From assembly GCA_903825435.1 (NCBI GenBank), contig CAIKAP010000043.1:282-64281 (forward strand): a stretch of 64,000 nucleotides of DNA, written 5' to 3'. How positions within the stretch are numbered: position 1 is the stretch's first letter; every line of letters begins with the position of its first letter. The notes under the pieces were generated by a model. That model saw only the letters and a program-made list of their open reading frames with translations. It was not told where the DNA came from and did no database searches. This DNA is from an uncultured Verrucomicrobiota bacterium (lineage in GTDB: Bacteria; Verrucomicrobiota; Verrucomicrobiia; Palsa-1439). The translations under genes were made by a program, and so were the position numbers. This document shows positions 16 through 24,526 of the stretch, in pieces.

Positions 16-300
16 ATGTTGCCCTACCTGCCGCTGGCCAACTACGATGTGGACCGCGAGACAGCCTCGCTGCTGCCGTTGGAATTGTGCTGGCAGTTCT
101 GCCTCATCCCGTTTGACCAGATCAGCCGTTGTCTTCTGGTCGCCACTGCCAACCCGTTCCAAGCCGCAGCTAAACGCACTGTGGAAGCCGCACTGCAGGC
201 CAACCTGTTCTGGTATGTGGCTGCGCCGGGGGACATTGTCACTGCACTGCGACGGGCGCATCGCCTCGAAGCCAGCGCCAAACCCAACACGAACCCATGA
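16..300 (+). CDS. Partial CDS (5' end outside window) ending in a GspE/PilB N-terminal (T2SSE_N-like) domain; stop overlaps pilB start (ATGA)
   Basis: Translation resembles the N-terminal domain of GspE/PilB ATPases (…LIPFDQISRCLLVATANPF…); no start in window; 4-nt overlap with downstream pilB. Confidence 0.45.
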   Translation: MLPYLPLANYDVDRETASLLPLELCWQFCLIPFDQISRCLLVATANPFQAAAKRTVEAALQANLFWYVAAPGDIVTALRRAHRLEASAKPNTNP

Positions 301-2006
301 AATCCTTCAGCGAAAGAATCACCGATGCTTTGATTGCCGACGGGCTACTGACTCAGAAACAGCTTCAGGAAATCGTTGATATCCAAAAGAAGCAAGGTGG
401 ACGGCTGCTGAAACTGCTCCAAGAACGCCAGGTAGTGTCGGAACAGGACATGATGATCGGCCTCGCCCGCTGCCTCAAGACACCGCCAATCACGTTACCG
501 AAGATGCACGTGCCATCGGAAATCGCCGAGTTGATCCCGAAGGAAATGGCGCAGATGTACAAAATGGTGCCGATAGCGCGCGTGGGCAAGAAGTTGTACG
601 TGGCGATGGCCGATCCGCTCAATGTGCTGGCGATGGACGAACTGCGTCGCGACCGTCCCAATATGGAGATCATCCCACTGATCACCACTGAGAAAGCCGT
701 TGGCGACTTCCTTAACGCCTCCTCCTCCCAAGTCAAGGAAGGTATTGACGAGATTCTTAGGGACGTGGACCTCTCTGACATCGAGATCGCCAAGGATAAA
801 CAGGAGGAAATCAACCTCGACAAGCTCGTCGAGAGCAGCGAGGAAGCGCCTGTCATCAAGCTCGTCAACCTTATGCTCGTTCAGGCGATCAAGGACCGGG
901 CCAGCGACATCCACATCGAACCTTTCGAGAAACAACTCCGCCTACGCTATCGCATTGACGGCGTGCTCTACGATTCGACCGCCCCGCCCAAGTCGATCCA
1001 ATCGGCGTTGACCTCGCGCATCAAGATTATGTCCACGCTCGACATCGCCGAGCGCCGCCTGCCGCAGGACGGACGTTTCCGCATCAAGATCGCCGGACGC
1101 GATGTGGACCTGCGTGTGTCGGTGTTGCCGACAATACACGGTGAGAAGATCGTCCTGCGCGTACTCGACAAGGGCACGCTGAACACGAATTTGGAAAATT
1201 TTGGATTGGATCCCGACGATCTCGCTAAGTTCAAGCAAGCCATCGACGCGCCGCACGGAATGATGTTGATGACGGGACCAACCGGTTCAGGCAAGACTTC
1301 GACGCTGTACGCTGTGCTGACCCAGCTCAACACCCCCGATGTGAACATCGTCACCGTCGAAGATCCCGTCGAGTACCAGATGCTCGGCATCAACCAAGTA
1401 CAGGTCAAACCCGATATCGGACTGACCTTCGCCGGCGGCCTGCGTTCCATCCTGCGCCAAGACCCCGACATCGTCATGGTCGGCGAAATCCGCGACTCCG
1501 AGACCGCTGACATCGCAGTCAAGGCGGCGTTGACCGGCCACTTGGTGCTCTCGACCCTGCACACCAATGACGCCCCCGGCGCCGTCGCACGCTTGGTGGA
1601 CATGGGCATTGAGCCGTTCCTAGTCAGTTCCTCCCTGCTCATGGTCTGCGCCCAGCGCCTTCTTCGCAAGATCTGCCCGCACTGCAAAGAAACCATGCAG
1701 GTTCCTCCTGAAGTCATCAAACGGCTTGGCCTGATCCCCGAAGAGGTCGCTACTAGTAGCTTCTACCGCGGACACGGTTGCGGCCGCTGCAAGGAAACTG
1801 GTTTCATGGGACGCATGGCGATCCTCGAAGTGCTGTCCATTAGTGCGGCCCTGCGCGACCAGATCCTGCACAATACCAGCGCCCAAGCCATCCGCGACGT
1901 GGCGTTGAAAGAGGGGATGAAGACGCTCAAAATGGCTGGTCTCAATAAGGCTAAGCTTGGTCTCACATCGTTGGACGAAGTCCTTCGCGTCACCGGTAAC
2001 GTGTAG
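297..2006 (+). CDS. pilB: Type IV pilus assembly ATPase PilB (GspE family)
   Basis: 569 aa with an N-terminal GspE_N domain; Walker A GPTGSGKTST; Asp/His boxes; C-terminal tetracysteine motif CPHC…CGRC; homology runs full length. Confidence 0.9.
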   Translation: MKSFSERITDALIADGLLTQKQLQEIVDIQKKQGGRLLKLLQERQVVSEQDMMIGLARCLKTPPITLPKMHVPSEIAELIPKEMAQMYKMVPIARVGKKLYVAMADPLNVLAMDELRRDRPNMEIIPLITTEKAVGDFLNASSSQVKEGIDEILRDVDLSDIEIAKDKQEEINLDKLVESSEEAPVIKLVNLMLVQAIKDRASDIHIEPFEKQLRLRYRIDGVLYDSTAPPKSIQSALTSRIKIMSTLDIAERRLPQDGRFRIKIAGRDVDLRVSVLPTIHGEKIVLRVLDKGTLNTNLENFGLDPDDLAKFKQAIDAPHGMMLMTGPTGSGKTSTLYAVLTQLNTPDVNIVTVEDPVEYQMLGINQVQVKPDIGLTFAGGLRSILRQDPDIVMVGEIRDSETADIAVKAALTGHLVLSTLHTNDAPGAVARLVDMGIEPFLVSSSLLMVCAQRLLRKICPHCKETMQVPPEVIKRLGLIPEEVATSSFYRGHGCGRCKETGFMGRMAILEVLSISAALRDQILHNTSAQAIRDVALKEGMKTLKMAGLNKAKLGLTSLDEVLRVTGNV

Positions 2007-2101
2007 TAGGTTGCATATTTGAGATTTTTCTCTCATTGGAGCATGCTAACGCATAGAATGAGGTATGTGGCACAGCCGTTGCTAAAACAAAAGCACGACC
2101 A

Positions 2102-3547
2102 ATGAAATTCCCGTTCTTCCAACCTAATCGCCCGTCACCACATGCACACACTCCACCCCGCGCCCCCGCCACCACGCACACATCTACACCATCGCCCGCA
2201 CCCACTCCCCCTCGACGCACAGAACCCGCTACGCCACCTGTCAAACCTCCCACCGGCTCCTTACGCAGCGCACCGCTGGCTGGAGTGGACTTGCCCACGC
2301 ACATCAAGTTCAAACTCCAATCCCTGTTGACCATCCTGCCAGATAACGTGCTGGCCCACCCGCGCGCCGAAATGCCTCAGCACATCAACGTGGACCAGCT
2401 CATCCCACTGCCAACCGATTTGATCATCTCCCAACTGGCAGGCGCCCGTGTTACTGTACCGCTTGTGATCATCCTCGACGCAATTCCGACGGAAGCCCTC
2501 AGTCCATCACGACCCAACCTCGACGATGCGCCAGTAACGTTGCCCCTACACGAGATTGTCGCCCAACTACCTCCCCGTTTCTTCACTACCCGCCTCAGTC
2601 AACGCACCGTCGCGGAAATCGCACCCGACATTCCCAGCCCCTTCCAAGAACGCAAACCCACACCGCCGCTGCCAACTCATATCGAAATTCCGGTGCCGTT
2701 ACCTGCGCACGTTGCGGCCGAGGCGTCGTGCGTCGCCGTCCCTATTCCACCCCCACCAGAACCCGTCATCGAGACAGTGACGGTCAAGCCTATGACGGAA
2801 CCAACACCGGTCACGGCCGCCGCACCGGTCATTCCGCCGCGGGCACCCGAACCAATCGAAGCAATCGCTCCCGTTGCGCCAGAACCGTCACCCGAACTTG
2901 AGCCCGAGTTTGAGAAACCAACGCTCCCAGCAGGGCCTTTGGACGAGAAGATGTTCCTCATCAACTTGAACCGTTGCAGCGTCGAGGACCTGCTTTCCAT
3001 CAAGAACGTCGGCCCGGCGCTGGCCAAGCGCATCATCGCTTGGCGTACGGAACACGGGCGCTTCAACTCCATCGAGGACCTGCGTCAGGTATCCGGCGTC
3101 GGACGCAAGACGTTCCGCGCATTAACCGGCGCAAAAGCCGAGGCGCTCAACCGCCTGCTCGGCGTCGCCGCAGACCGCGAATTGTCGCTGCAAGAAGTCG
3201 TGCGACTGACCAGTAAGCTGCCCGGCCTCCAAGGCTGCATGTTGGCCACCTCCGACGGCCTCTTACTAACCGGCGAAGTGTCACCACATCTCGACAAGGA
3301 AGCCATCAGCGTCTTTGCCCCACAACTGTTCAAGCGCGTCGCCCGCTACACAAAGGAACTCAAGGTCGGACAGGTCAGCCGCTTCACCATCTTCACTGAC
3401 CAGCAACCCGTCAGCATCTTCGGCGCGGAAGACGTCTTCCTCGTCATTTTCCACGACTCCAAACACTTCAGCAAACGACTACTACGCCAATGCGAGCGCA
3501 TCAGCTTTGAAGTCGCACGACTCTGTCGCCAACGCACCACCGTCTAA
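2102..3547 (+). CDS. Three-part protein: Pro-rich low-complexity N-terminus, ComEA-like helix-hairpin-helix region, C-terminal Roadblock/LC7 (MglB-like) domain
   Basis: N-terminal approx 280 aa are P/T/A-rich; the middle (…SVEDLLSIKNVGPALAKRIIAWRTEHGRFNSIEDLRQVSGVGRKTFRAL…) resembles the ComEA HhH; the C-terminal approx 110 aa (LPGLQGCMLATSDGLLLTGE…VIFHD) has Roadblock/LC7 sequence features. Confidence 0.6.
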   Translation: MKFPFFQPNRPSPHAHTPPRAPATTHTSTPSPAPTPPRRTEPATPPVKPPTGSLRSAPLAGVDLPTHIKFKLQSLLTILPDNVLAHPRAEMPQHINVDQLIPLPTDLIISQLAGARVTVPLVIILDAIPTEALSPSRPNLDDAPVTLPLHEIVAQLPPRFFTTRLSQRTVAEIAPDIPSPFQERKPTPPLPTHIEIPVPLPAHVAAEASCVAVPIPPPPEPVIETVTVKPMTEPTPVTAAAPVIPPRAPEPIEAIAPVAPEPSPELEPEFEKPTLPAGPLDEKMFLINLNRCSVEDLLSIKNVGPALAKRIIAWRTEHGRFNSIEDLRQVSGVGRKTFRALTGAKAEALNRLLGVAADRELSLQEVVRLTSKLPGLQGCMLATSDGLLLTGEVSPHLDKEAISVFAPQLFKRVARYTKELKVGQVSRFTIFTDQQPVSIFGAEDVFLVIFHDSKHFSKRLLRQCERISFEVARLCRQRTTV

Positions 3548-3558
3548 GAAGCTCTCGT

Positions 3559-4245
3559 ATGGCCATCATCAACTACGCAAACAAAGAAGTTCAGTTCAAG
3601 ATCGTCTTTTACGGTCCCGCACTCTGCGGAAAGACTACCAACCTCGCCTACATCCACAGCCAGATCACTGAGACCAACAAAGGCGAACTCGTCTCCTTAG
3701 CCACCGCAGCCGACCGCACCCTCTTTTTCGACTTCCTTCCACTCAACGCCATCGTCATCCGCAATTTCAAGACCAAGTTCCAGCTCTACACCGTCCCTGG
3801 TCAGGTCATCTACAACGCCACCCGCCAACTCGTCCTCCGCAGCGTTGACGCCGTCGTCTTCGTCGCCGATTCCCAGTGGGACAAGATGGAGGAAAATATC
3901 GAGAGTTTCCGTAACCTCGACGAGAATCTCGCCCGCCAGGGACTCAGCCTCGACACCATCCCCTACGTCATCCAGCTCAACAAACGCGACATGCCCAACG
4001 TCGCTCCCATCCACTACCTCGACTTCATCCTCAATGACCGCGCCGTCTGCGTCCCCAGCTTCGAAGCCTCCGCCACCACCGGCCAAGGCGTCTTCGACAC
4101 CCTCAACACCGTCTCCCGTATGTTGCTGGTAAAATTCGCCCGCGACGCCGAAGCCGCCGCCTACGTCAAATCGCAGCCCACCCCCGCCGCCAGCCCTATG
4201 GACGGTGTCGCCGCCGGGCTACGTCAACCTCAGGCCGCACGCTAA
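3559..4245 (+). CDS. mglA: Ras-like small GTPase MglA (mutual gliding motility protein A family)
   Basis: Near full-length similarity to Myxococcus MglA: P-loop GPALCGKTT, TDRTLFFDF switch region, YTVPGQ, NKRD; 228 aa. Confidence 0.85.
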   Translation: MAIINYANKEVQFKIVFYGPALCGKTTNLAYIHSQITETNKGELVSLATAADRTLFFDFLPLNAIVIRNFKTKFQLYTVPGQVIYNATRQLVLRSVDAVVFVADSQWDKMEENIESFRNLDENLARQGLSLDTIPYVIQLNKRDMPNVAPIHYLDFILNDRAVCVPSFEASATTGQGVFDTLNTVSRMLLVKFARDAEAAAYVKSQPTPAASPMDGVAAGLRQPQAAR

Positions 4246-4246
4246 C

Positions 4247-4741
4247 ATGCAATCCACCCCCATCGTCACCATTGCCGCTGCTGAGAAATTCCTCAAGACC
4301 TTGGAGGAGTTTCTCAACCACTCCGAGGCATTTTTCGCCCTGATTATTGATCGCGGCGGCACTATCCTCAGCCAGAGTGGCCGCCCGCCCGACGGTACCG
4401 ACATCACCATCCTCGCCGCACTGGCCGCCGGCAGTTTCGCCGCAACACGCGAACTCGCCACCCGCGTCGGCGAATCCGAGTTTAACGCCCTTTACCAGCA
4501 AGGCAGCCACTTCCACATCCTTATGAACGCCGTGGACGACGACACCATGCTCGTCACCATCTTTAGCACTCAGACCACCGTCGGCCTCGTCCGCTTCTAC
4601 TCCGCTCGCACCAGCGAACAAATCGCCATCCAGATGCAGGAACTCCGCGCCGATTGCGTTGACGCACCCCTTGTTTTCACCGAGGCAGACCTAAACACCG
4701 CCTCCCAGATCTTCCGGGATACCACCGACAAAGCTGTGTAG
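4247..4741 (+). CDS. mglB: Roadblock/LC7 domain protein, MglB-like (putative GAP for MglA)
   Basis: ATG 1 nt after mglA stop; similarity to MglB (…LAAGSFAATRELATRVGESEF…VTIFSTQTTVGLVRFY…). Confidence 0.8.
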   Translation: MQSTPIVTIAAAEKFLKTLEEFLNHSEAFFALIIDRGGTILSQSGRPPDGTDITILAALAAGSFAATRELATRVGESEFNALYQQGSHFHILMNAVDDDTMLVTIFSTQTTVGLVRFYSARTSEQIAIQMQELRADCVDAPLVFTEADLNTASQIFRDTTDKAV

Positions 4742-4849
4742 CCGCTGCTTAATGTTCCCGAAGTCTTTGTCGAGGAGAACTATTTGACTCTAAAAATGAA
4801 CGCCGTTCCACGACCGACGAAACCCTGAAAAATCAATTTCTCCAATTAA

Positions 4850-4923
4850 TGGAGCGGGCGATGGGAATCGAACCCACCTCACCAGCTTGGAAGGCTGGCG
4901 CATTACCACTATGCTACGCCCGC
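4850..4923 (-). tRNA. tRNA-Gly (anticodon UCC)
   Basis: Reverse complement folds as a cloverleaf: acceptor GCGGGCG/CGCCCGC; anticodon stem CCAGC/GCTGG with loop CTTCCAA; T-loop GGTTCGATTCC; CCA encoded. Confidence 0.9.
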
Positions 4924-4967
4924 CTCGGCGTACGCGCGCAACAATCTGCCCGAACCCCGCATTGCCG

Positions 4968-6110
4968 TCAAGCGTTCTCCTGCCGCAAATGAATCGTCTG
5001 CGTCGGAAAGGCAAACTCCAATCCGGCAGCATCGAAGCGACGCTTGATCTCGACATTGATCTGTCCTAGCGCGTACAGCGATTCTTTTTCCTCGGTGCTC
5101 CGGCACCAGTACACGATGAAAATGTCCAGCGAACTGGCTGAGTAGTCTCGCCAATATACCCATACATCATGCGTCTGGGGATGCGCGCGAAAAATTTCTT
5201 CCAAGATTTTTACCGCCTCCTGCATTCGTTCCGCCGTCGTGCCATACGTCAATCCAAGCGTCATTGCGCGACGGATTGTCGGCCGCGATGAAATGTTTAC
5301 GATGCCCGCATCCACCACGACCTTGTTGGGGATCGTCACCAAGTGTCCGTTCGGCGTCCGTATGCGCGTGCTGCGCAGGCCGATCTCCTCCACCGCACCT
5401 TCAAACTCCTGAATCTTGACGTTGTCACCGACGCGAAACGGACGATCCACCAGAATTGCCACCGAACCAAAGATGTTCGCCAATGTATTTTGCGCCGCCA
5501 ACGCCACTGCAATGCCGCCCACCCCCAGCCCCGCGATCACACTCGTAATCGGAAACCCAAGATACTGCGCCGCCGAAAGCGCTCCAGTGATGATCACAAA
5601 CACCTTCAACGTCCGGCTCATGATCGGCACCATCATCCCTGCCAACTTCGGATCTCCTGTAAATAACCGGTCCTTCGATGCGTCCAACAACAAGTCCAGA
5701 AGCCGCATCACCACGTAAATCACAGTCGTCGCCATGCCCAGCGCGAACAAAATCGTCAACCCGTTCTCCACCACACGCGGCCAATCGAACACCTGTAGCC
5801 CCACCTTCAACACCAGAAACACCACCACAATCTTGACCGGCCGGTGCAAAATCTCCAGCAACTTGTCATCCAAATTCGTCACCGTCTTTGTCATCAGCCG
5901 CCTCACCCATCGCGTCATGACAAAGTTCACGACTTGCGCCACGACGAACGCCATCACGATCCACAACGCCGTCGCCACATACTGCCACAACGGCCTCCCC
6001 AATACCTTCGCGTGCAATATCCCCACCTGATCTAAGCCAAAACTTGATTCCGACCACACCTGTTGCACCGCCTGCGTGCTTGTCGTTGCTCCAAGTAATA
6101 ATGAGATCAT
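4968..6110 (-). CDS. Small-conductance mechanosensitive channel (MscS family)
   Basis: MscS signature region (…FRVGDNVKIQEFEGAVEEIGLRSTRIRTPNGHLVTIPNKVV…). Start chosen at MISLLLG, which has a GGAGG RBS; the Arg/Cys-rich N-terminal extension in the ORF table is implausible. Confidence 0.8.
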   Translation of the reverse strand: MISLLLGATTSTQAVQQVWSESSFGLDQVGILHAKVLGRPLWQYVATALWIVMAFVVAQVVNFVMTRWVRRLMTKTVTNLDDKLLEILHRPVKIVVVFLVLKVGLQVFDWPRVVENGLTILFALGMATTVIYVVMRLLDLLLDASKDRLFTGDPKLAGMMVPIMSRTLKVFVIITGALSAAQYLGFPITSVIAGLGVGGIAVALAAQNTLANIFGSVAILVDRPFRVGDNVKIQEFEGAVEEIGLRSTRIRTPNGHLVTIPNKVVVDAGIVNISSRPTIRRAMTLGLTYGTTAERMQEAVKILEEIFRAHPQTHDVWVYWRDYSASSLDIFIVYWCRSTEEKESLYALGQINVEIKRRFDAAGLEFAFPTQTIHLRQENA

Positions 6111-6135
6111 ATTTTCCTCCACCAGATCGCGCCAA

Positions 6136-7422
6136 TTATACGGGCGCACCATCCAACTGCAAGCCGCACGGCGCCAACACCGCCTCCGACATCCCGTGCA
6201 ACAGCTTCTTGTCCGACGGGCAAATCGTCGCCAACACCCCGCCGAGTTTCGTCTCCTTCCCATCCACGAAATAATACGGACACAACCGCACCCGCCCTTT
6301 GAACTCCCTCACCTCATTCGCCTCAAAATCAAACCACCGTGCCGGCACCAGTCGCGACTTCCCGAACCGCTGCAAGATGAACGGATTCGACGAGAAACTC
6401 GTCACCGCCCTCTCAATTGCCGCCGCCCACTCGCCCGCCGACAAGTCTTGCCCCACCGACACACTTCGACCTCCCCACGCCTGCTCGTGAAATCCAGACA
6501 TCTTCAACACCAACTCCCGCTGCTTCTGCGAAAACTTAGCCATCTCCCGCCAGTCGTTGATACCGAGTTCTGGAATCACTGCATGCGGAGGCAACGGTGT
6601 TGGGTCCACGATCCACGTCCGCGGAAAAATCCGCCGCAAATGCGCCGTCGTCTCCGCACCCAGATGCTCCCGCCAGAACGCCTCCAGTTGCGGCTGCCAT
6701 AGAAACGCGAACAACAACTTCTCCTCCAGTTGTGGTTTCGGCGGCGGCGTCACATTTCCAGCAATGATCTCCCAACCGTTCGGCACGTTCGCCAAATCGA
6801 ACAACTCGAAAAACCGGTAGAACGTCCCCACGTTTTCCAATGTCGCCACTTCTTCCGGTCGCACCACGCGAAAGCCGACCTGCTGTCCCAGCCACTCCAT
6901 CTCCGGCCGGTACGTCCCCGCCTCCTCGCTCACCACGACAACGCCGCGTTCACCGAGAATCGCCGTGAACCCTTCCATCATCCCATGCGAACCGCCAACG
7001 ATGTCGTCGTCGAGTTCGCCGTACGTCTTGCCGAGCCAGCCGGTCAACCCGATGCCGCCCGGCACGCTGTCGAGTTCCGAGATGAAGAAACCGTCGTCGC
7101 TCAGAATCACATCGGGCCGAATCACGCGCGGCACCGCGCTCTTGAACCGCTCCGACCGCGACAACGCGATCAACTCCGCCGGTTTACCGGCGTCGAGGTA
7201 ATCCGCGATCCACTTCGGTTGTTTCCCCGCGACACTGTGCCGGTAAAGCGTATTGCAGGCACGATAGAACGCGAGCAATTGCGGCCCCAGCGCCTCCAAC
7301 TCCGTGACAAGTGAAGCGGGAAGCGGAAAGGCCGTCGGCGCAATCCGCCACGTCAACCCGGCAAACAGCCCGCCAGACGGAAGCTGGTCGCGCACATAAT
7401 GGGCGCGTTCGGCGGCGTTCAT
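6136..7422 (-). CDS. Conserved hypothetical protein, ATP-grasp-like (glutathionylspermidine-synthase / circularly permuted ATP-grasp-like)
   Basis: 428 aa continuous ORF with good coding character; ends 4 nt inside the proA start; family assignment from overall pattern only. Confidence 0.4.
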   Translation of the reverse strand: MNAAERAHYVRDQLPSGGLFAGLTWRIAPTAFPLPASLVTELEALGPQLLAFYRACNTLYRHSVAGKQPKWIADYLDAGKPAELIALSRSERFKSAVPRVIRPDVILSDDGFFISELDSVPGGIGLTGWLGKTYGELDDDIVGGSHGMMEGFTAILGERGVVVVSEEAGTYRPEMEWLGQQVGFRVVRPEEVATLENVGTFYRFFELFDLANVPNGWEIIAGNVTPPPKPQLEEKLLFAFLWQPQLEAFWREHLGAETTAHLRRIFPRTWIVDPTPLPPHAVIPELGINDWREMAKFSQKQRELVLKMSGFHEQAWGGRSVSVGQDLSAGEWAAAIERAVTSFSSNPFILQRFGKSRLVPARWFDFEANEVREFKGRVRLCPYYFVDGKETKLGGVLATICPSDKKLLHGMSEAVLAPCGLQLDGAPV

Positions 7423-18552: not shown

Positions 18553-19575
18553 ATGCCCGACGACAATAAACCAATCCTGCCGCGCGATGAAGACGTGGCG
18601 GCAATCGACAAACTCCGCGACACCTACGCGGGACTTCGTACCGAACTCGGCAAAGTCATCATCGGACAAGACCAAGTCATCGAGGAACTCGTTATCGCCA
18701 TTCTCGGACGCGGTCACGCGCTGTTGATGGGCGTACCGGGACTGGCCAAGACGCTGCTCGTGCGTTCCGTAGCCGAGACGCTGGCGCTGACCTTTAGCCG
18801 CATTCAGTTCACCCCCGACCTGATGCCCGGCGACATCACCGGTACCGAGATCATTCAAGAATCCGCCACACCGGGACGACGGCAGTTCGAGTTTGTGAAG
18901 GGACCGATCTTCGCGAACATCGTGCTCTCCGACGAAATCAACCGCGCCCCGCCCAAGACGCAGGCCGCGCTTCTCGAGGCGATGCAAGAGCATCGCGTCA
19001 CCGCCGCAGGACACACGTATCAGCTCGCGCCGCCATTCTTCGTGCTGGCGACGCAGAATCCGATCGAGCAGGAAGGCACCTATCCGTTGCCCGAGGCACA
19101 ACTGGACCGGTTCATGTTCCTGATCCATGTCGATTATCCGAACACCGACGAAGAGAAACGTATCGCGCGCGAGACGACGGGCAGCGCCGTGGCGTCGTTG
19201 AAGAAACTCATCTCAGGTGACCAGGTGATCGCTATGCAGGAGTTGGTCCGGCGCGTTCCTGTGCCCGACCACGTTTATGATTACGCGGTCAACATCGTCC
19301 GCCGGTCGCGTCCGCCTTTACCGGAGTCGCCCGACTGGATCAAGAACTGGGTGAGCTGGGGTGCCGGACCGCGCGCGGTCCAGTACCTCGTCATCGGTGC
19401 GAAGGCCCGCGCCGCGCTCCTCGGCAGTTACATGGCGCGCCAGGAAGACGTCGAGGCCGTTGCCGCGCCCGTGCTCGGCCACCGCATCCTGACGAACTTC
19501 CACGCCGAGAGCGAAGGCGTCACCAGCCGCGACATCATCAAACGCCTCATGGAGGAAACCGCGCCCGCAGCGTAG
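18553..19575 (+). CDS. MoxR-family AAA+ ATPase
   Basis: Walker A LLMGVPGLAKT, sensor regions; AAGGAG RBS. Confidence 0.9.
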   Translation: MPDDNKPILPRDEDVAAIDKLRDTYAGLRTELGKVIIGQDQVIEELVIAILGRGHALLMGVPGLAKTLLVRSVAETLALTFSRIQFTPDLMPGDITGTEIIQESATPGRRQFEFVKGPIFANIVLSDEINRAPPKTQAALLEAMQEHRVTAAGHTYQLAPPFFVLATQNPIEQEGTYPLPEAQLDRFMFLIHVDYPNTDEEKRIARETTGSAVASLKKLISGDQVIAMQELVRRVPVPDHVYDYAVNIVRRSRPPLPESPDWIKNWVSWGAGPRAVQYLVIGAKARAALLGSYMARQEDVEAVAAPVLGHRILTNFHAESEGVTSRDIIKRLMEETAPAA

Positions 19576-19587
19576 GCCGAGTTTCCG

Positions 19588-20475
19588 ATGAGCCTGCACG
19601 GCACTCAACGCGAATTCCTCGATCCCGGCGTGCTGGCGCGATTGTCGCGCCTCGAACTCCAGTCGCGCTGGCCGATGGAAGGCAACATCGCGGGCCGGCA
19701 CAAAAGCCCGCACCGCGGCGCGTCCGTCGAGTTCTCCGAGTACCGCAAATACGTCCCCGGCGATGACCCGCGCTTTCTCGACTGGCGCGTGTACGCCCGT
19801 CGCGACCGGTTTTACCTCAAGGAATTCGAAGCCGACACCAACCTGCGCTGCTACCTCGTGCTCGACGCCAGCGGCTCGATGGCGTACGCGAACAAGTTCC
19901 TGCTCGCCCGTAAACTCGCTGCCACGCTCGGCTACCTCGCGATGCAACAAGGCGACGCCGTCGGCTTGATGTGTTGCGGTGCAAAACTGACGACTGACAT
20001 TGCCCCGCGTCGCAAACCAGCCCACCTCAAGAACATCTTCGACGCAATGGCCGCCGCGAAACCAGAAGGCGAGACCGGGTTGGTGACGGCGCTCCACACC
20101 GTCGCCGAGAAAATCCGGCGTCGTGCACTTGTCGCGGTGTTCTCCGATCTTTTCCACGATCCAGAAGAGTTACTCCACTGTTTCCGTCATCTCCGGTTTC
20201 GTAAACACGACCTCGCCGTGTTTCACCTGCTCGACAAGACCGAGGTGGACTTCAAGTTAGACCGGCCGATCCGGTTCGTTGACATGGAAGACCAATCCAC
20301 CATCGTGGCTGAGCCGGGCGTGATTTATCCGCGGTACCGCGAGGCGCTTGATGCGTACTTGGAGAAGCTACGGCGCGGTTGTAGCGAGTTCAAGGTGGAT
20401 TACCGGCTCGTGATGGCAAACGAGGATTACGAGAAGGTGCTCGCTGACTTTCTCCTTGCCCGGATGCGGACATGA
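19588..20475 (+). CDS. DUF58 domain protein (MoxR-associated)
   Basis: DUF58 core (…HRGASVEFSEYRKYVPGDDPRFLDWRVYAR…VLDASGSM…). Confidence 0.85.
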   Translation: MSLHGTQREFLDPGVLARLSRLELQSRWPMEGNIAGRHKSPHRGASVEFSEYRKYVPGDDPRFLDWRVYARRDRFYLKEFEADTNLRCYLVLDASGSMAYANKFLLARKLAATLGYLAMQQGDAVGLMCCGAKLTTDIAPRRKPAHLKNIFDAMAAAKPEGETGLVTALHTVAEKIRRRALVAVFSDLFHDPEELLHCFRHLRFRKHDLAVFHLLDKTEVDFKLDRPIRFVDMEDQSTIVAEPGVIYPRYREALDAYLEKLRRGCSEFKVDYRLVMANEDYEKVLADFLLARMRT

Positions 20476-22355
20476 GTTTCCTCCAGCCATTCATCCTCTG
20501 GGCACTGCCGTTGATGGCGATTCCGATCATCGTGCATCTGCTGAACCGGATGCGCTACCGGACGATGCCGTGGGCGGCGATGATGTTCCTGCGGATGGCG
20601 ACTCGGCAGTCAACGCGTCAAGCTCGACTCCGCGAATGGCTGATTCTGGCGTGTCGCGTACTCGCCGTGGCGGCGTTGATCTTCGCCATCGCGCGTCCGC
20701 TCGTCGGTGGCTGGCTCGGTTGGGCGATGGGCGCGGCACCGGATACGATTGTGCTGTTGCTCGACCGCTCGGCAAGCATGGACGTGCAAGACCCGACGAC
20801 GCACGTCAGCAAACGCGTGCTGGCGCTTCGTCGCCTCTCGGAAGCCGGCAAAGAGTACGTTGGCTCGTCGCGCTTCGTCCTCATCGAGAGCGCGCTCCGC
20901 AAACCGCAGGAGGTCGCCAGCCTCGGCGCGCTTGAAACTCTCTCCACCACTGCGCCAACCGACAGCGCCGCCGACATCCCGGCGTTACTCGACGCGGCGC
21001 TCGATTACGTCGTGGCGAACCAATGCGGGCGGACGGAAGTGTGGCTGGCGTCCGACCTCCAGCAATCGAACTGGCAACCGGAGTCGCGCCGGTGGGAAGC
21101 GGTGCGGACCCGGTTCGCATCGTTGCAACAGGACGTACGGGTGCGGCTGCTGGCGTTGACAGAAGTCGTGCCGGATAATGTGGCCGTCGCGGTGCGCGAC
21201 GTGCAGCGGCGGAAAACAGCGCGCGGTTACGAACTGGCAATGACGGTCGAACTCACCCGGAACAATACCGGAACATCAACCTTGCCGCTGGCAGTCGTTC
21301 ACGAGGGGGCGCGTTCGCTGGTGAATGTGCAACTCGAAGGCCAGCGGCAGAGCGTGCAGGTCACTCTCGACCTCGGTCAGCGCCAATCCGAAGGCTGGGG
21401 CTGGATCGAGTTACCCGCCGATGCCAACACGCGCGACAATATCGCCTACTTTAGCTACCCGGAAGATCTTCACTTGAAGACCGTGGTCGTTGCGGAGAAC
21501 GACGTCGCCCGGCGCGTCTTGCGAGTCGCGTCGGCGCCCGCGCCAGCGGCACTCAACGAATCATCGGACACCGTCGTGCCCGGTTCGCCGTTGAAACTCG
21601 ACGACGTGGCGATGTTGGTCTGGCAGGGCGCCGTGACGAACGTTGTGCGCTATTTCGCGGAGAGCGGGGGGACAGTCGTGGTTTTTCCGGGCAGCAAGAG
21701 CGAGGACGGCAAGTTCCGCGTCACGACGTGGCGTCGGACGGACGGGCCGCTGGCGAACGCCAAGGACGGACGAATTCTGTCGCTAGGCGAAGTCGCGGTG
21801 ACGCGACGCGAGGTGTTGAACGCGCCCGGCACGGTACTGGCGTCGTTCGCGGACGGCAAACCGTTTCTCGTGAAGCAGATGGTCGGCAAGGGCGCGATCT
21901 ACTGGTGCGCGACGCTACCGGTGCGCGAGTGGTCGAGTCTCGATGACGGCACGGTGTTGGTGCCGATGTTGCAACGCATTCTTCAGGAAGGCGGTCGCCG
22001 GTTGAGCAAGGCGGATAACTCGGAAGTCGGTGCTGTTGTTGGACAGGCGCCGCGACTGTCGGGCCAAGGTGGACGCGTCGCGACTGACGCCGGTGTGTAC
22101 CAAGTCGGCACGCGCGTGACGGCAGTGAACCGGCCTGTCGCAGAGGATGAACCGGATGTGATTGACGAGACGGCGGTGCGGACGGCTTTTGGTCCGGTTT
22201 CGTTCCGGATGTTCACGGATAAGGGCGGCGGTGCGAACGCGGCGTTGCAATCGGAGATCTGGCGTTGGTTCATGGTGGCGATGCTGATCTTCCTGACGGG
22301 CGAAGCGGTGCTGGCGTTGCCGAAACGCGCAAAGGAGCGATCATGGGCAAGCTGA
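20472..22355 (+). CDS. BatA-like aerotolerance-related membrane protein (N-terminal BatA domain)
   Basis: N-terminal MSFLQPFILWALPLMAIPIIVHLLNR (BatA_N type); 4-nt overlap with the DUF58 gene. Confidence 0.65.
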   Translation: MSFLQPFILWALPLMAIPIIVHLLNRMRYRTMPWAAMMFLRMATRQSTRQARLREWLILACRVLAVAALIFAIARPLVGGWLGWAMGAAPDTIVLLLDRSASMDVQDPTTHVSKRVLALRRLSEAGKEYVGSSRFVLIESALRKPQEVASLGALETLSTTAPTDSAADIPALLDAALDYVVANQCGRTEVWLASDLQQSNWQPESRRWEAVRTRFASLQQDVRVRLLALTEVVPDNVAVAVRDVQRRKTARGYELAMTVELTRNNTGTSTLPLAVVHEGARSLVNVQLEGQRQSVQVTLDLGQRQSEGWGWIELPADANTRDNIAYFSYPEDLHLKTVVVAENDVARRVLRVASAPAPAALNESSDTVVPGSPLKLDDVAMLVWQGAVTNVVRYFAESGGTVVVFPGSKSEDGKFRVTTWRRTDGPLANAKDGRILSLGEVAVTRREVLNAPGTVLASFADGKPFLVKQMVGKGAIYWCATLPVREWSSLDDGTVLVPMLQRILQEGGRRLSKADNSEVGAVVGQAPRLSGQGGRVATDAGVYQVGTRVTAVNRPVAEDEPDVIDETAVRTAFGPVSFRMFTDKGGGANAALQSEIWRWFMVAMLIFLTGEAVLALPKRAKERSWAS

Positions 22356-24526
22356 GCTTCGGCTTCTCATGGCCGTCGGCAATCGTCGGCGTCGCGCTGG
22401 TGGCGGCGGCGGCGTGGCTTTGCGTCCAGCACTGGCGACGGCACGGGGCGCGGCCGATGGTGCTAGGCTTGGAGATTTTCCGGTGGGTGATTGTGTGCTT
22501 GTTGTTCGTGACGCTGCTGCGACCGGAGTGGGTGAACCTTTACAAGCCGACGACACAACCGGAAGTTGTTGTGCTGTGCGACGCGTCGCGGAGCATGACG
22601 ACGCGCGACGTGGTGGACGGCAACAACGTCGTGCCGCGCGCAGACTGGGTGAAACAGCAGCGCGAAGTGGCGCCATGGAAGGCACTGGAGAAACGTTATC
22701 AGGTCCGCGTCGAGGAGTTCTCGCTGACGCCGACGAACGTTTCGCTAGAGGAAGGAACCGACATCAACGCGGCGCTGGACGGTGCGTTGAATCGTTCGAA
22801 GAACCTGCGCGCGGTGGTGTTGTTGAGCGACGGCGACTGGAACCTCGGCAAGTCGCCCGTGGCGGCGGCGACGCGGTTGCAGATGGCGAACGTGCCGGTG
22901 TTCGCGGTGGCGGTGGGGAGCGACCGGTATTTGCCCGACATTGATTTGGTCAGCGTGGCAGCCCCGGCGTATGGATTGCTGGGTGAACAGGTGTTTATTC
23001 CGTTCACGGTGCAGAGCCATTTGCCGCGCGAGGTGAACACGACGGTGTCGTTGATGGACGGCGGCGTGGCGGTGGCGCAGAAGAAGGTGACGATCCCCGC
23101 GAACGCGCAGGTGCAGGAAGCGGTGATGTGGTACCCGCAACGCGAGGGGCAGACGACGTTGACGGTGCGCGTGCCGCCGGAGGCGGAGGAGATCAACCGC
23201 GACAACAACGAGCGACGGTTCCAGATCACGGTGCGGCGGGAGACGCTGCGGGTGCTGGTGGTGGACTCGTTGCCGCGCTGGGAATATCGCTATCTGCGCA
23301 ACGCGCTCTCGCGCGATCCGATGGTGGATTCAAAGTGCGTGCTGCTGCATCCTGACCTGAAGGCAGGCGAGGGAAAGAATTACCTCCCGCAATTCCCAAG
23401 CACGAAGGAGGCGCTGTCGCCCTACGATGTGGTGTTCCTCGGCGATGTTGGTGTTGGCGAGAACGAGTTGTCGGCACACGACGCGGAGATGTTGAAGGGA
23501 CTCGTCGAGCAACAAGGCAGCGGCCTCATCTTCATTCCCGGCCGGCGCGGTCGGCAGTTGTCGTTTGAGGGGACGGCGCTGGAGAGTTTGTATCCGGTCG
23601 TGCTCGACAAGACGCAAGTCGAGGGCGTGACGTTGCCGACACCGTCGCAGTTGCAATTGACGCGGACGGGGCGCGGTCACTGGCTGACGATGCTGGCGAA
23701 CTCGGAGGACGCGAACGCGGCGGTCTGGCAGCAGTTGCCCGGTTTCTGGTGGTGCGCGGGTGTGACGAAAGCGAAGCCCGGCACCGAGGTTCTCGGCGTC
23801 CACGAGACATACCGCAACCAGTGGGGCAAGCTGCCGTTGCTGGTGACCCGCGCGGCAGGCAACGGCAAGGTGCTCTTCCTCGGCACCGATTCGGCGTGGC
23901 GCTGGCGCGCGGGCGTGGAGGATTTGTATCACTACCGGTTCTGGGGACAGGTCGTGCGCTGGATGAGCTACCAACGCCACCGGGCCTACGACCAGGGTTT
24001 CCGACTCGCGTTCGGTCCCGACAGTCCGTCGCAAGGCGAGACGGTGTTCCTGACCGCGACCGTGTTCGACTCCGGCGGGATGCCGCTCAACGACGGACGC
24101 GTGACCGCCGAGATCTCCGCGCCGAACGGACGGAGCGAACGGCTGACGCTGACGGCGGTGCCGGGTGGCTGGGGCGTTTACCAAGCGTCATTTTTGCCGC
24201 AACTTTCCGGAAAATTCCGTGTCAAACTCCAGTGTGACCAGACGGGCCGCTCGATGGAGTCGGAGTTGCTCGTGCGCGGCGTGGTTCGCGAGGAAGCTGG
24301 CAAACCGGCGCAGGTTGAAGTATTGCGCGAGATCGCCGGGATCACGCGTGGCGTTTGCGGTGCGCCGGAGGAACTGGCGAGGTTTGTAGACCAGCTCGCA
24401 GCGTTGCCCGAGGCGGCACCAGTGGAGCGGCGGGTGCGGCTGTGGTCGAACCCGTGGTGGGGCGCGATGTTGCTGGGGATGTTGACGGTCTATTGGATCG
24501 GAAGGAAAGTAGCAGGTCTGATATGA
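22343..24526 (+). CDS. Membrane-anchored VWA domain protein (Bat-operon member)
   Basis: AAAGGAG RBS; N-terminal TM region; VWA-like region (VVLLSDG…); overlaps the upstream gene by 13 nt. Confidence 0.6.
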   Translation: MGKLSFGFSWPSAIVGVALVAAAAWLCVQHWRRHGARPMVLGLEIFRWVIVCLLFVTLLRPEWVNLYKPTTQPEVVVLCDASRSMTTRDVVDGNNVVPRADWVKQQREVAPWKALEKRYQVRVEEFSLTPTNVSLEEGTDINAALDGALNRSKNLRAVVLLSDGDWNLGKSPVAAATRLQMANVPVFAVAVGSDRYLPDIDLVSVAAPAYGLLGEQVFIPFTVQSHLPREVNTTVSLMDGGVAVAQKKVTIPANAQVQEAVMWYPQREGQTTLTVRVPPEAEEINRDNNERRFQITVRRETLRVLVVDSLPRWEYRYLRNALSRDPMVDSKCVLLHPDLKAGEGKNYLPQFPSTKEALSPYDVVFLGDVGVGENELSAHDAEMLKGLVEQQGSGLIFIPGRRGRQLSFEGTALESLYPVVLDKTQVEGVTLPTPSQLQLTRTGRGHWLTMLANSEDANAAVWQQLPGFWWCAGVTKAKPGTEVLGVHETYRNQWGKLPLLVTRAAGNGKVLFLGTDSAWRWRAGVEDLYHYRFWGQVVRWMSYQRHRAYDQGFRLAFGPDSPSQGETVFLTATVFDSGGMPLNDGRVTAEISAPNGRSERLTLTAVPGGWGVYQASFLPQLSGKFRVKLQCDQTGRSMESELLVRGVVREEAGKPAQVEVLREIAGITRGVCGAPEELARFVDQLAALPEAAPVERRVRLWSNPWWGAMLLGMLTVYWIGRKVAGLI

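What the first reader, a model, noticed from the sequence alone, without database searches (positions are those of the whole stretch)
2102..3547. Unusual fusion of a proline-rich region, a ComEA-like HhH domain and a Roadblock/LC7 domain
The N-terminal approx 280 aa are extremely Pro/Thr/Ala-rich and repetitive. The middle carries a ComEA-type helix-hairpin-helix (DNA-binding in competence proteins). The C-terminal approx 110 aa look like a Roadblock (MglB/MglC-like) domain. A Pro-rich linker is also a feature of the Myxococcus polarity factor RomR. The protein could be a composite scaffold tying the MglA switch to DNA or to the pilus machinery. I do not recognise this architecture as a described family.
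Basis: partly seen in the sequence, partly recalled or inferred. Interest (0 to 1): 0.65.

Follow-up and report, generated by a model that had tools for sequence, protein, structure and literature searches.

The report
New MglA/MglB-linked scaffold protein
The gene is real and encodes a conserved, uncharacterised multi-domain protein (an undescribed folded domain, a ComEA-type DNA-binding domain and a divergent Roadblock domain) that always sits between a pilus-motor ATPase gene and the MglA/MglB polarity-switch genes, so it is probably a missing adaptor linking that switch to type IV pili in Verrucomicrobia.

Summary
ORF 2102-3547 (+, 481 aa) is real. The ComEA-type HhH domain (aa 285-353; Pfam HHH_3 E 2e-17; ComEA 8dfk E 1e-13) and the Roadblock domain (aa 360-481; AF2 pLDDT >90; Foldseek TM about 0.8 to Roadblock, MglB and LAMTOR; Pfam Robl_LC7 in 20 of 20 relatives) are confirmed.

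The "Pro-rich, repetitive" N-terminal half is only partly right. Two disordered Pro-rich spacers flank a confidently folded, conserved domain of about 110 aa (aa 61-171, four strand-helix units), followed by a short Φ-P-x-Φ-F motif. This domain has no Pfam, PDB-sequence or Foldseek-PDB match.

The ATG at 2102 is the true start, because the MKFPFF peptide is conserved. In 35 Verrucomicrobiota species the gene lies in an invariant cassette: TPR-MshEN protein, PilB-like ATPase, this gene, MglA, MglB.

The new domain occurs in about 1,400 protein clusters. It is usually fused to this Roadblock type, with or without HhH, and lay next to MglA-like/Roadblock genes in four of five distant loci and next to PilB/PilC in the fifth.

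Best reading: an adaptor that docks onto MglB/MglA through its Roadblock domain (MglC/RomR-like logic) and links the switch to the pilus motor, with DNA binding as an add-on. The architecture and context are shown; the mechanism is inferred. I found no paper describing it.

The parts
16..300 (+). C-terminal MshEN domain of the first cassette gene, a TPR-MshEN protein of about 300 aa whose 5' part is cut off by the window start.
   Evidence: Pfam MshEN E 4.9e-13. The full-length orthologue in L001 has TPR plus MshEN. The gene is present upstream of PilB in every related locus with enough flank.
297..2006 (+). PilB/GspE-family pilus or secretion ATPase (569 aa) with an N-terminal MshEN domain.
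   Evidence: Pfam T2SSE E 1e-140 and MshEN E 2.7e-12. TIGR02538 PilB scores 666 bits (cutoff 675.65) and TIGR02533 GspE scores 636 bits (cutoff 630.25). Identity across related loci is 60-89%, mostly 74-89%.
2102..3547 (+). The finding: a 481-aa multi-domain protein (coordinates include the stop codon).
2102..2122 (+). Conserved N-terminal peptide MKFPFFQ (family motif M[KR][FLW]PFF[KR]). It marks the true start codon.
   Evidence: The motif is at residue 1 in 73 of 120 relatives.
2123..2281 (+). Disordered Pro/Thr/Ala-rich basic spacer 1 (aa 8-60). It occupies the position where longer relatives carry a first copy of the N-module.
   Evidence: pLDDT 42-54. P 30%, pI 12. Alignment.
2282..2614 (+). 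Novel folded 'N-module' (aa 61-171). It has four strand-helix units with the motif ΦxΦPΦxxΦΦxxΦP, followed by a helix.
   Evidence: pLDDT 93-98 in the whole-protein model and 90-97 over most of the isolated-module model. No Pfam hit, no PDB sequence hit and no Foldseek hit in PDB or BFVD. 1,397 representative proteins carry it.
2630..2653 (+). Short linear motif IPSPFQER (family pattern [ILFM]-P-x-[PLVF]-F-x-[ED]-[KRDE]). It follows every copy of the N-module. P180, F181 and E183 are invariant.
2654..2953 (+). Disordered acidic Pro/Glu/Val/Ala-rich spacer 2 (aa 185-284). Its length varies widely between relatives.
   Evidence: pLDDT 47-61. Composition (P 28%, E 13%, pI 4.4) was computed on aa 172-284. 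Relatives range from about 440 to 840 aa.
2954..3160 (+). ComEA-type double helix-hairpin-helix domain (aa 285-353). It is basic (pI 10.8) and both hairpins are intact.
   Evidence: Pfam HHH_3 E 2.3e-17. ComEA 8dfk E 1.1e-13; KIF22, EEPD1 and Tex HhH domains are also hit. pLDDT 86-96.
3179..3544 (+). Divergent Roadblock/LC7 domain (aa 360-481) with a long, nearly invariant basic C-terminal helix (aa 458-480).
   Evidence: Nearly invariant residues are listed.
3559..4245 (+). MglA orthologue (228 aa). It starts 11 nt after the stop codon of the finding.
   Evidence: phmmer to M. xanthus MglA, E 8e-68 over aa 1-194. The P-loop, the DRTLFFDF arginine region and TVPGQ are conserved. Gap computed.
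4247..4741 (+). Cognate MglB (Roadblock GAP, 164 aa counted from ATG 4247, 1 nt after the mglA stop).
   Evidence: NCBIfam MglB NF052242 E 4.9e-19, 69 bits, below its 200-bit cutoff. T. thermophilus MglB 1j3w E 1e-13 and M. xanthus MglB E 2e-13.

Best explanation
The ORF encodes a cytoplasmic, largely extended adaptor protein that belongs to an MglA/MglB small-GTPase polarity module and is genetically wired to a PilB-type type IV pilus ATPase.

Anatomy (shown):
- a conserved N-terminal peptide;
- a Pro-rich spacer;
- one copy of a previously undescribed ~110-aa domain built from four strand-helix units, followed by a Φ-P-x-Φ-F linear motif;
- an acidic Pro/Glu-rich spacer;
- a ComEA-type HhH domain;
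- a divergent Roadblock domain with a conserved basic C-terminal helix.

Mechanism (inferred):
- The Roadblock domain dimerises and docks onto the MglB dimer and/or MglA. This is layered Roadblock-on-Roadblock or Roadblock-GTPase contact, as MglC does with MglB in Myxococcus and Ragulator does with Rag.
- The N-module and its linear motif bind the pilus motor side: PilB, the co-encoded TPR-MshEN protein, or PilM.
- Pilus extension is thereby switched on where MglA-GTP is, or MglB GAP activity is positioned.
- The flexible spacers give reach.
- The basic HhH domain adds non-specific dsDNA (nucleoid) binding as a lineage-specific positional cue or tether.

The window's version is a reduced form. 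It has one N-module instead of two and lacks the second 'IFAEK' motif.
For: Real gene and true start: the N-terminal motif is conserved.

Domains: HhH, Roadblock and the novel folded N-module.

Operon:
- The intergenic gaps are 95 nt, 11 nt and 1 nt, all genes on the same strand.
- The order TPR-MshEN / PilB / this gene / MglA / MglB is kept in all of the 40 related loci (L001-L040; 35 from the species scan) that have enough flank, while the outer flanks differ.
- MglA is a true orthologue (E 8e-68) and MglB a true MglB.

Domain-fusion and neighbourhood evidence beyond this clade:
- The N-module profile finds 1,397 representative proteins.
- Of 128 non-close representatives, 34 are N-module(s)-HhH-Roadblock, 39 are N-module(s)-Roadblock, and 33 are membrane-anchored N-module proteins.
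- Distant members sit next to an MglA-like GTPase plus MglB, together with PATAN regulators (L041, L044, L045, L046). One sits next to TPR-MshEN, PilB, PilC and PilS (L042).
- PilM/PilN genes are nearby in L045 and L046.
- The distant N-module-HhH-Roadblock protein P0167 aligns end to end with this Roadblock domain (hhalign 83%, E 8.5e-6).

Precedent for a second Roadblock dimer that binds MglB under MglA-GTP control, joined to a Pro-rich protein (RomR): PMC10329633, read.

The HhH domain is basic, pI 10.8, and its nearest solved relatives are nucleic-acid-binding HhH domains.
Against: - No interaction was tested or modelled; no multimer prediction was available.
- The Roadblock domain has no detectable sequence similarity to the cognate MglB. 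By sequence it is nearer to Asgard Roadblock proteins, so which partner it binds is open.
- The N-module has no known relative, so its binding partner is a guess from neighbourhood only.
- The Verrucomicrobial cassette lacks PilC and PilM/N/O/P/Q nearby; the next 30 kb of the window is housekeeping. The ATPase scores between the PilB and GspE thresholds, so 'pilus' is likely but not certain.
- About half of the wider family lacks HhH, so DNA binding cannot be central.
- All members come from uncultured genomes, so there is no phenotype.
Confidence: 0.5

Rival explanations
1. Direct MglA regulator or effector. The Roadblock domain binds MglA itself, as a second GAP or co-GAP, a GEF-like factor, or a GTP-state-specific effector, rather than stacking on MglB. 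The rest of the protein only localises that activity.
For: Roadblock dimers are classical platforms for small GTPases: MglB, Ragulator and Asgard Roadblock proteins all appear among the fold hits. The alpha2 helix (SVFAPQLF...RY) and the C-terminal helix are nearly invariant, as expected for a conserved binding face. The gene is 11 nt upstream of mglA. In distant lineages the order N-module-Roadblock / MglA / MglB is kept.
Against: A bona fide MglB is already encoded in the cassette. The alpha2 helix sequence differs from the small-residue-rich alpha2 of MglB (visible in the alignments). There is no sequence similarity to MglB. In Myxococcus the extra Roadblock protein MglC does not bind MglA (PMC10329633).
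Confidence: 0.25
2. Pilus-motor accessory protein that acts on PilB independently of MglA/MglB. The operon link would reflect co-expression only, and the HhH domain would serve as a protein-protein module.
For: The cassette starts with TPR-MshEN and PilB. A membrane-anchored N-module protein sits in a PilB/PilC/PilS locus with no MglA in the 19 kb seen (L042).
Against: The Roadblock fusion, and the MglA/MglB neighbourhood in four independent distant loci that lack an adjacent PilB, tie the family to the GTPase module more consistently than to PilB.
Confidence: 0.1
3. ComEA-like competence protein that receives transforming DNA. This is the name several databases give to relatives.
For: A strong ComEA-type HhH match. 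JGI names relatives 'competence protein ComEA'. Type IV pilus ATPases drive DNA uptake in many bacteria (established knowledge).
Against: TIGR01259 comEA scores 58.6 bits against a cutoff of 152 and matches the HhH part only. There is no signal peptide or membrane anchor; the only hydrophobic stretch lies inside the folded N-module. Fusion to a cytoplasmic Roadblock domain and the MglA/MglB context point to the cytoplasm. HhH is absent from about half of the wider family. No comEC or other competence gene is nearby.
Confidence: 0.05
4. Annotation artefact. The real protein would start well inside the ORF (for example at GTG V62, as one public gene call has it), and the Pro-rich N-terminus would not be translated.
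For: P0001, a 100%-identical public gene call, is 420 aa and starts at V62. There is no obvious Shine-Dalgarno sequence before ATG 2102.
Against: MKFPFF at the first ATG matches the N-terminus conserved in 73 of 120 relatives. Longer relatives carry a whole extra domain in this region.
Confidence: 0.02

Closest known systems
MglC of Myxococcus xanthus (Roadblock adaptor in the RomR/MglC/MglB complex)
   Same: A second, non-MglB Roadblock-domain protein that belongs to an MglA/MglB module. It is expected to dimerise and to act as an adaptor rather than a GAP. It is linked, here covalently, to a Pro-rich extended region, as RomR is linked to MglC (PMC10329633; fold).
   Different: MglC is a stand-alone Roadblock-domain protein. 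This protein is 481-840 aa and carries a novel N-module, linear motifs and a ComEA-type HhH. No sequence similarity to MglC or MglB was detected, and MglC's FDI and KRR surface motifs were not assessed. It is encoded inside the mglAB operon next to pilB.
MglB (Roadblock GAP of MglA)
   Same: Roadblock fold with a C-terminal helix, TM 0.72-0.81 to M. xanthus MglB 6hjm. Encoded next to mglA.
   Different: No sequence relationship to the cognate MglB (hhalign probability 0.06%) and no NCBIfam MglB hit. The alpha2 helix sequence is different. A genuine MglB is present two genes downstream.
ComEA (competence DNA receptor)
   Same: The same double-HhH (HHH_3) DNA-binding domain; 8dfk E 1e-13.
   Different: ComEA is a small, membrane-anchored periplasmic or extracellular protein. 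Here the domain is internal, in a protein with no signal or anchor sequence, fused to a cytoplasmic Roadblock domain. It scores far below the full-length comEA model cutoff.
RomR (Myxococcus and Bdellovibrio polarity factor)
   Same: A long Pro-rich intrinsically disordered spacer in a protein of the MglA module. Acidic stretches are present.
   Different: No receiver domain (no Response_reg hit) and no Glu-rich C-terminal oligomerisation helix. It has folded N-module, HhH and Roadblock domains instead.
SgmX and PATAN-domain regulators (links between polarity or taxis signals and PilB)
   Same: The inferred job is the same: connect a polarity or signalling module to the pilus extension ATPase (PMC7519303 and PMC7668184 for SgmX; bioRxiv 10.1101/2021.06.11.447907 for PATAN-PilB1; these were listed but only titles and abstracts were seen). 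PATAN genes neighbour distant family members.
   Different: No TPR or PATAN domain in this protein. The link to PilB rests on gene neighbourhood only.

Membership tests
Roadblock/LC7 superfamily (Pfam PF03259) | Sequence match to the family model at or above the gathering score. | tested here: inconclusive
   The window protein scores 19.2 bits (whole protein) and 22.9 bits (domain alone) against a cutoff of 23. However, 20 of 20 relatives match at E <= 0.01, best 3.8e-8. A family profile hits PDB Roadblock 7f8f at E 4.7e-6.
Roadblock/LC7 superfamily (Pfam PF03259) | Alpha-beta-beta-alpha-beta-beta-beta sandwich fold. | tested here: met
   AF2 secondary-structure order is H363-371, E376-383, E388-392, H399-419, E427-431, E436-442, E445-451, H458-480, at pLDDT 90-97. 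Foldseek gives TMt 0.72-0.82 to Roadblock, MglB and LAMTOR structures, E down to 1.5e-8.
Roadblock/LC7 superfamily (Pfam PF03259) | Forms homo- or heterodimers through the edge strand and alpha2. | not testable with these tools
   No multimer prediction was available.
MglB (GAP of MglA; NCBIfam NF052242) | Sequence membership in the MglB family. | tested here: not met
   No MglB model hit for the target in NCBIfam at E <= 1. hhalign of the family profile against the cognate MglB gives probability 0.06%. PDB profile hits are Asgard Roadblock proteins, not MglB.
MglB (GAP of MglA; NCBIfam NF052242) | Stimulates GTP hydrolysis by MglA. | not testable with these tools
   Biochemical assay needed.
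MglC-type Roadblock adaptor | Roadblock protein of an MglA/MglB module that binds the MglB dimer but not MglA (PMC10329633). | not testable with these tools
   Only the context is met: it is encoded between pilB and mglAB. Binding is unknown. The FDI and KRR surface motifs of MglC were not compared because no MglC sequence was in hand.
ComEA (TIGR01259 / TIGR00426) | Double HhH (HHH_3) DNA-binding domain. | tested here: met
   HHH_3 E 2.3e-17. TIGR00426 scores 49.2 bits against a cutoff of 53.1. 8dfk E 1.1e-13.
ComEA (TIGR01259 / TIGR00426) | Full-length match to the comEA model. | tested here: not met
   TIGR01259 scores 58.6 bits against a cutoff of 152.35, and only profile positions 58-114 are matched.
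ComEA (TIGR01259 / TIGR00426) | N-terminal signal or membrane anchor giving periplasmic or extracellular exposure. | tested here: not met
   The N-terminus MKFPFFQPNRPSPH is not hydrophobic. The only 19-aa window with Kyte-Doolittle above 1.8 (aa 107-125, which contains Arg) lies inside the folded N-module. This was a crude hydropathy test; no dedicated predictor was run.
ComEA (TIGR01259 / TIGR00426) | Association with competence genes (comEC and others). | tested here: not met
   The neighbours are PilB, MglA and MglB, followed by housekeeping genes.
RomR | N-terminal response-regulator receiver domain. | tested here: not met
   No Response_reg hit at E <= 1.
RomR | Pro-rich intrinsically disordered linker. 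| tested here: met
   aa 1-60 are P 30% and aa 172-284 are P 28%, with block-mean pLDDT about 42-61.
N-module/Roadblock family defined here (no public name) | One or more copies of the ~110-aa four strand-helix module, each followed by a Φ-P-x-Φ-F motif. | tested here: met
   Window aa 61-171 plus IPSPFQER. Modules A and B of relatives align end to end. The profile finds 1,397 representative proteins.
N-module/Roadblock family defined here (no public name) | C-terminal Roadblock domain of the SVFAPQLF / RRCERIS type, and a neighbouring MglA-like GTPase plus MglB. | tested here: met
   and context.

The most novel reading that the evidence does not exclude
N-module/Roadblock proteins are a widespread, so far unrecognised third core component of bacterial MglA/MglB modules. 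They would act as a tethered Roadblock platform. Its new domain and linear motifs would couple the GTPase switch to the type IV pilus motor (PilB, TPR-MshEN protein, PilM). In the HhH-bearing branch it would also bind the nucleoid, so that the chromosome itself serves as a spatial reference for where MglA/MglB can act. This would be a mechanism of polarity control different from the RomR/RomX/MglC wiring of Myxococcus.
Probability: 0.3. Interest if true: 0.8.

Novelty: new variant of a known kind. Interest (0 to 1): 0.6.

Why it matters
MglA/MglB is the paradigm for small-GTPase polarity in bacteria, but nearly everything known about how it is localised and how it reaches the pilus motor comes from Myxococcus (RomR, RomX, RomY, MglC, SgmX). 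How the many MglA/MglB modules in other phyla are wired is an open question.

This locus offers a concrete, conserved candidate:
- It is physically fused to a Roadblock domain.
- In Verrucomicrobiota it is encoded between pilB and mglA.
- It carries a new folded domain, found in about 1,400 protein clusters, that no database describes.

It also gives directly testable hypotheses: Roadblock-on-Roadblock docking, N-module binding to the pilus motor, and DNA binding by a cytoplasmic ComEA-type domain. Finally, it corrects a recurrent misannotation, since relatives are named 'competence protein ComEA'.

Tried and rejected
- The word-indexed search with the N-module profile returned only 10 fragments. 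The exhaustive representative search was needed.
- A Pfam scan of the whole alignment A1 exceeded the size limit and was replaced by the C-terminal alignment A4.
- hhalign of the Roadblock profile against the C-terminal region of a membrane-anchored N-module protein (P0143) found nothing. My by-eye impression that those proteins end in tandem Roadblock domains is therefore unsupported.
- Membrane-targeting idea for the N-terminal peptide:
  - In the wider family, 48 of 170 N-termini exceed the 95th percentile of helical hydrophobic moment.
  - Many read like amphipathic peptides, for example MFGAIKKLFKR.
  - The window's MKFPFFQPNRP scores 0.19, below the background mean of 0.27, and contains prolines.
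  - I therefore do not claim membrane targeting for this protein.
- 'Repetitive' DNA: TRF found only a 20-nt weak repeat.
- The promoter and terminator scan was at background level and was not used.
- Literature searches for MglA/MglB + Verrucomicrobia, Roadblock + HhH + MglA, Roadblock + ComEA + pili, and PATAN + MglA + Roadblock found no description of this protein.
- Taxonomy of the wider family could not be resolved. Only two named hits were found, one Verrucomicrobiales and one Pseudomonadales MAG, and the cluster look-up gave no names.
Full report
**1. The observation**

ORF 2102..3547 (+) exists and encodes 481 aa. It lies on the same strand as four other genes:
- a truncated MshEN-domain gene (16..300);
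- a PilB/GspE-family ATPase (297..2006; T2SSE E 1e-140; TIGR02538 666 bits, TIGR02533 636 bits);
- a small Ras-like GTPase (3559..4245);
- a Roadblock protein (4247..4741).

The intergenic gaps are 95, 11 and 1 nt.

The HhH claim is confirmed. Pfam HHH_3 gives E 2.3e-17 at aa 287-342. The ComEA HhH-repeat models give E 4e-13 to 6e-16. The ComEA structure 8dfk gives E 1.1e-13, followed by the HhH domains of EEPD1, KIF22 and Tex.

The Roadblock claim is weak on the single sequence: 19.2 bits, or 22.9 for the isolated domain, against a cutoff of 23. It becomes solid with more evidence:
- 20 of 20 relatives match Robl_LC7, best E 3.8e-8.
- The family profile hits PDB Roadblock proteins, 7f8f at E 4.7e-6.
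- The AlphaFold2 model of aa 360-481 has the canonical alpha-beta-beta-alpha-beta-beta-beta(-alpha) order at pLDDT 90-97.
- That model superposes on Asgard Roadblock, M. xanthus and T. thermophilus MglB, and LAMTOR, with TM 0.72-0.82 and E down to 1.5e-8.

**2.

Only aa 1-60 (P 30%, pI 12) and aa 172-284 (P 28%, E 13%, pI 4.4) are Pro-rich and predicted disordered. There are no tandem repeats in the DNA.

Between these spacers, aa 61-171 fold with pLDDT 93-98 into four strand-helix units followed by a longer helix:
- HIKFKLQSLLTILP
- LIPLPTDLIISQL
- VTVPLVIILDAIP
- VTLPLHEIVAQLP

About 10 residues later comes the motif IPSPFQER, in which P180, F181 and E183 are invariant across 83 aligned relatives.

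Most relatives are 600-840 aa and carry two copies of this module. Each copy is followed by the same kind of motif (LPxLFDD after copy A, IPxPFxEK after copy B), and a further 'IFAEK' motif comes later. The two copies align end to end. The window protein and its closest relatives (P0004, P0007, P0072) have lost copy A and the IFAEK motif.

The module has no known relative in the libraries I could search:
- no Pfam hit at E <= 1 (also none in seven distant multi-copy proteins at E <= 0.1);
- no PDB sequence hit (best E 0.85);
- no Foldseek hit in PDB or BFVD.

**3. The true start**

One public gene call for the identical sequence starts at GTG V62 (P0001). However, the first six residues, MKFPFF, match an N-terminal peptide, M[KR][FLW]PFF[KR], present at residue 1 of 73 of 120 relatives.

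**4. Conservation and context**

The protein search found 149 clusters at 90% identity. All named hits were Verrucomicrobia MAGs, and most carry precomputed HHH_3 and Robl_LC7 hits.

A scan of one genome per GTDB species found 35 loci. All are Verrucomicrobiota MAGs except one 3-kb contig binned as Terracidiphilus.

In every locus with enough flank, the order TPR-MshEN protein / PilB-like ATPase / this gene / MglA / MglB is kept. Identities to the window genes are:

| Gene | Identity |
|---|---|
| PilB | 60-89% (mostly 74-89%) |
| MglA | 72-87% |
| MglB | 47-78% |
| This protein | 38-84% |

. The genes outside the cassette differ between genomes. The first gene is TPR plus MshEN.

MglA is a genuine orthologue. 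It gives E 8e-68 to M. xanthus MglA, with the P-loop, the DRTLFFDF arginine region and TVPGQ conserved. MglB is a genuine MglB (E 1e-13 to 1j3w).

The rest of the window up to 33 kb is housekeeping, with no further pilus genes. It includes an MscS-like channel, a proline-biosynthesis-like pair (amino-acid kinase + PUA, and aldehyde dehydrogenase), a MacB-type ABC exporter, LPS genes, a MoxR/BatA cluster and Ffh.

**5. The wider family**

An exhaustive profile search with the N-module against 1.84 billion representative proteins gave 1,397 hits at E <= 1e-3 and 541 at E <= 1e-10. Hits carry 1-7 copies, in proteins up to 2,283 aa.

I classified the 128 listed non-close representatives with three local HMMs:

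| Architecture | Count |
|---|---|
| N-module(s)-HhH-Roadblock | 34 |
| N-module(s)-Roadblock, no HhH | 39 |
| 1-4 predicted TM helices, then N-modules, then an unassigned C-terminal region | 33 |
| Fragments or other | 22 |

The conserved core is therefore N-module plus this particular Roadblock type, and HhH is optional.

The neighbourhoods of distant members point the same way:

| Locus | Member architecture | Neighbours |
|---|---|---|
| L041 | N-modules-HhH-Roadblock | divergent MglA-like GTPase and MglB; PATAN protein; FHA proteins |
| L044, L045 | N-modules-Roadblock | PATAN response regulator upstream; MglA-like GTPase and MglB downstream; PilM nearby in L045 |
| L046 | membrane-anchored | three Roadblock proteins, two small GTPases, two PATAN proteins, PilM/PilN |
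| L042 | membrane-anchored | TPR-MshEN protein, PilB, PilC, PilS |

The Roadblock domain of the distant protein P0167 aligns over its full length with the window family's profile (hhalign 83%, E 8.5e-6). The C-terminal region of the membrane-anchored type shows no such similarity.

**6. How it most likely works**

Shown: the domain anatomy, the operon, and the phylogenetically repeated fusion and neighbourhood with Roadblock, MglA and MglB, and in some lineages with PilB, TPR-MshEN or PilM.

Inferred: the protein is an adaptor of the MglA/MglB module.

The closest functional precedent is Myxococcus MglC. MglC is a second Roadblock dimer that is sandwiched between MglB dimers and the Pro-rich protein RomR, and MglA-GTP breaks its contact with MglB. 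The authors relate this to Rag/Ragulator Roadblock layering (PMC10329633).

Here a divergent Roadblock domain is covalently joined to Pro-rich spacers, and it has nearly invariant alpha2 (SVFAPQLF..RY) and C-terminal (SK.LLRRCERIS.EIARLCRQR) helices. It has no sequence similarity to the cognate MglB, so it is not a recent MglB duplicate.

I consider docking onto MglB and/or MglA the most likely role of this domain. Whether it binds MglB (MglC-like) or MglA directly (the rival explanation) cannot be decided here.

The N-module and its Φ-P-x-Φ-F motifs are the best candidates for contacting the pilus motor side. This rests on neighbourhood evidence only.

The HhH domain is basic (pI 10.8) and is of the type whose solved relatives include nucleic-acid-binding proteins (ComEA, Tex). 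The protein has no signal peptide or anchor, so this would mean nucleoid binding in the cytoplasm. Because HhH is missing in about half of the family, I treat it as a lineage-specific addition, such as a positional cue or tether, and not as the core function.

**7. Comparison with known families**

- It has the Roadblock fold. The fold test is met; the sequence threshold is borderline for this sequence but met by the family.
- It is not an MglB (tested, not met).
- It is not a ComEA. Only the HhH domain matches, while the full-length model, the anchor and the context tests all fail. The database name 'competence protein ComEA' given to relatives is therefore misleading.
- It is not RomR (no receiver domain).
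- It works most like MglC plus a RomR-like spacer, but membership in the MglC family was not testable.

I found no paper describing the architecture or the N-module. The 2014 census of prokaryotic Ras-like GTPases notes only that Group 5 MglA members occur in Verrucomicrobia and that PATAN genes neighbour some MglA genes (PMC4316618).

**8. Verdict**

This is a real, conserved, uncharacterised protein. The description of the N-terminal half needs correction, and the more interesting discovery is the undescribed N-module and the size of its family.

Novelty: a new variant of a known kind of system, namely a new type of component of MglA/MglB polarity modules.

Confidence is high for the anatomy and context and moderate to low for the mechanism.

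Noticed in passing
window 16..300 (+); full-length orthologue at L001:7064-8014: The first gene of the cassette is a TPR + MshEN protein of about 300 aa. In effect it is a PilB N-terminal domain on a TPR scaffold with no ATPase. A longer TPR-MshEN protein also precedes PilB/PilC in the unrelated locus L042. It could be a decoy or a c-di-GMP-sensing partner of PilB.
   Followed up: partly
window 297..2006 (+): The ATPase scores between the curated thresholds. It is just below PilB (666 vs 675.65 bits) and just above GspE (636 vs 630.25). Its N-terminus gives a sub-threshold match to the MshE-type c-di-GMP-binding motif model (NF053729, 29.4 vs 38 bits, aa 7-53). No PilC, PilM or PilQ genes are nearby.
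   Followed up: partly
window 3559..4245 (+), aa 195-228: The MglA orthologue carries a 34-aa Pro/Ala/Gln-rich C-terminal extension that is absent from M. xanthus and T. thermophilus MglA. Relatives in the cassette are also 226-228 aa.
   Followed up: no
window 4205..4741 (+): The longest ORF for MglB starts at GTG 4205 and overlaps mglA by 41 nt. ATG 4247, 1 nt after the mglA stop, gives 164 aa and fits the 155-160-aa orthologues better.
   Followed up: partly
P0131-P0308 (wider family), N-termini: Many soluble N-module/Roadblock proteins outside the Verrucomicrobial clade begin with a short basic-hydrophobic peptide (MFGAIKKLFKR, MAFSFSNLFRSK, MGFFSKLFGGK). 48 of 170 N-termini exceed the 95th percentile of helical hydrophobic moment. 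A third branch has 2-4 real TM helices instead. The family may be generally membrane-tethered, but the window's MKFPFF peptide is not amphipathic.
   Followed up: partly
L046:1-12918 (distant metagenome contig): A dense cluster: a TPR protein, a 1,465-aa membrane-anchored protein with 7 N-modules, three Roadblock proteins (one of them membrane-bound), two small GTPases, two PATAN proteins, then PilM/PilN. It looks like an expanded version of the same system.
   Followed up: partly
P0164 / P0260 (2,283 aa): This protein has 5-7 N-module matches by the two searches. Its N-terminus looks by eye like a response-regulator receiver domain, but it was not scanned against Pfam. If so, the module can also be placed under two-component control.
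   Followed up: no
window 6136..7422 (-): A 428-aa ORF with no Pfam hit at E <= 1e-5. It lies between an MscS-like channel gene and an aldehyde-dehydrogenase-family (ProA-like) gene, with an amino-acid kinase + PUA (ProB-like) gene further on.
   Followed up: no
window 18553..28559 (+): MoxR-type AAA (AAA_3), DUF58 and BatA-N genes are followed by three large ORFs (753, 1,072 and 350 aa) with no Pfam hits. This is a Bat/aerotolerance-like operon with uncharacterised large components.
   Followed up: no
window 2001..7000: There is a strongly negative GC skew on the + strand (-0.16 to -0.39 per 500 nt) across the cassette and beyond. It continues over genes on the opposite strand (4968-7422), so coding-strand Pro codons alone do not explain it.
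   Followed up: no
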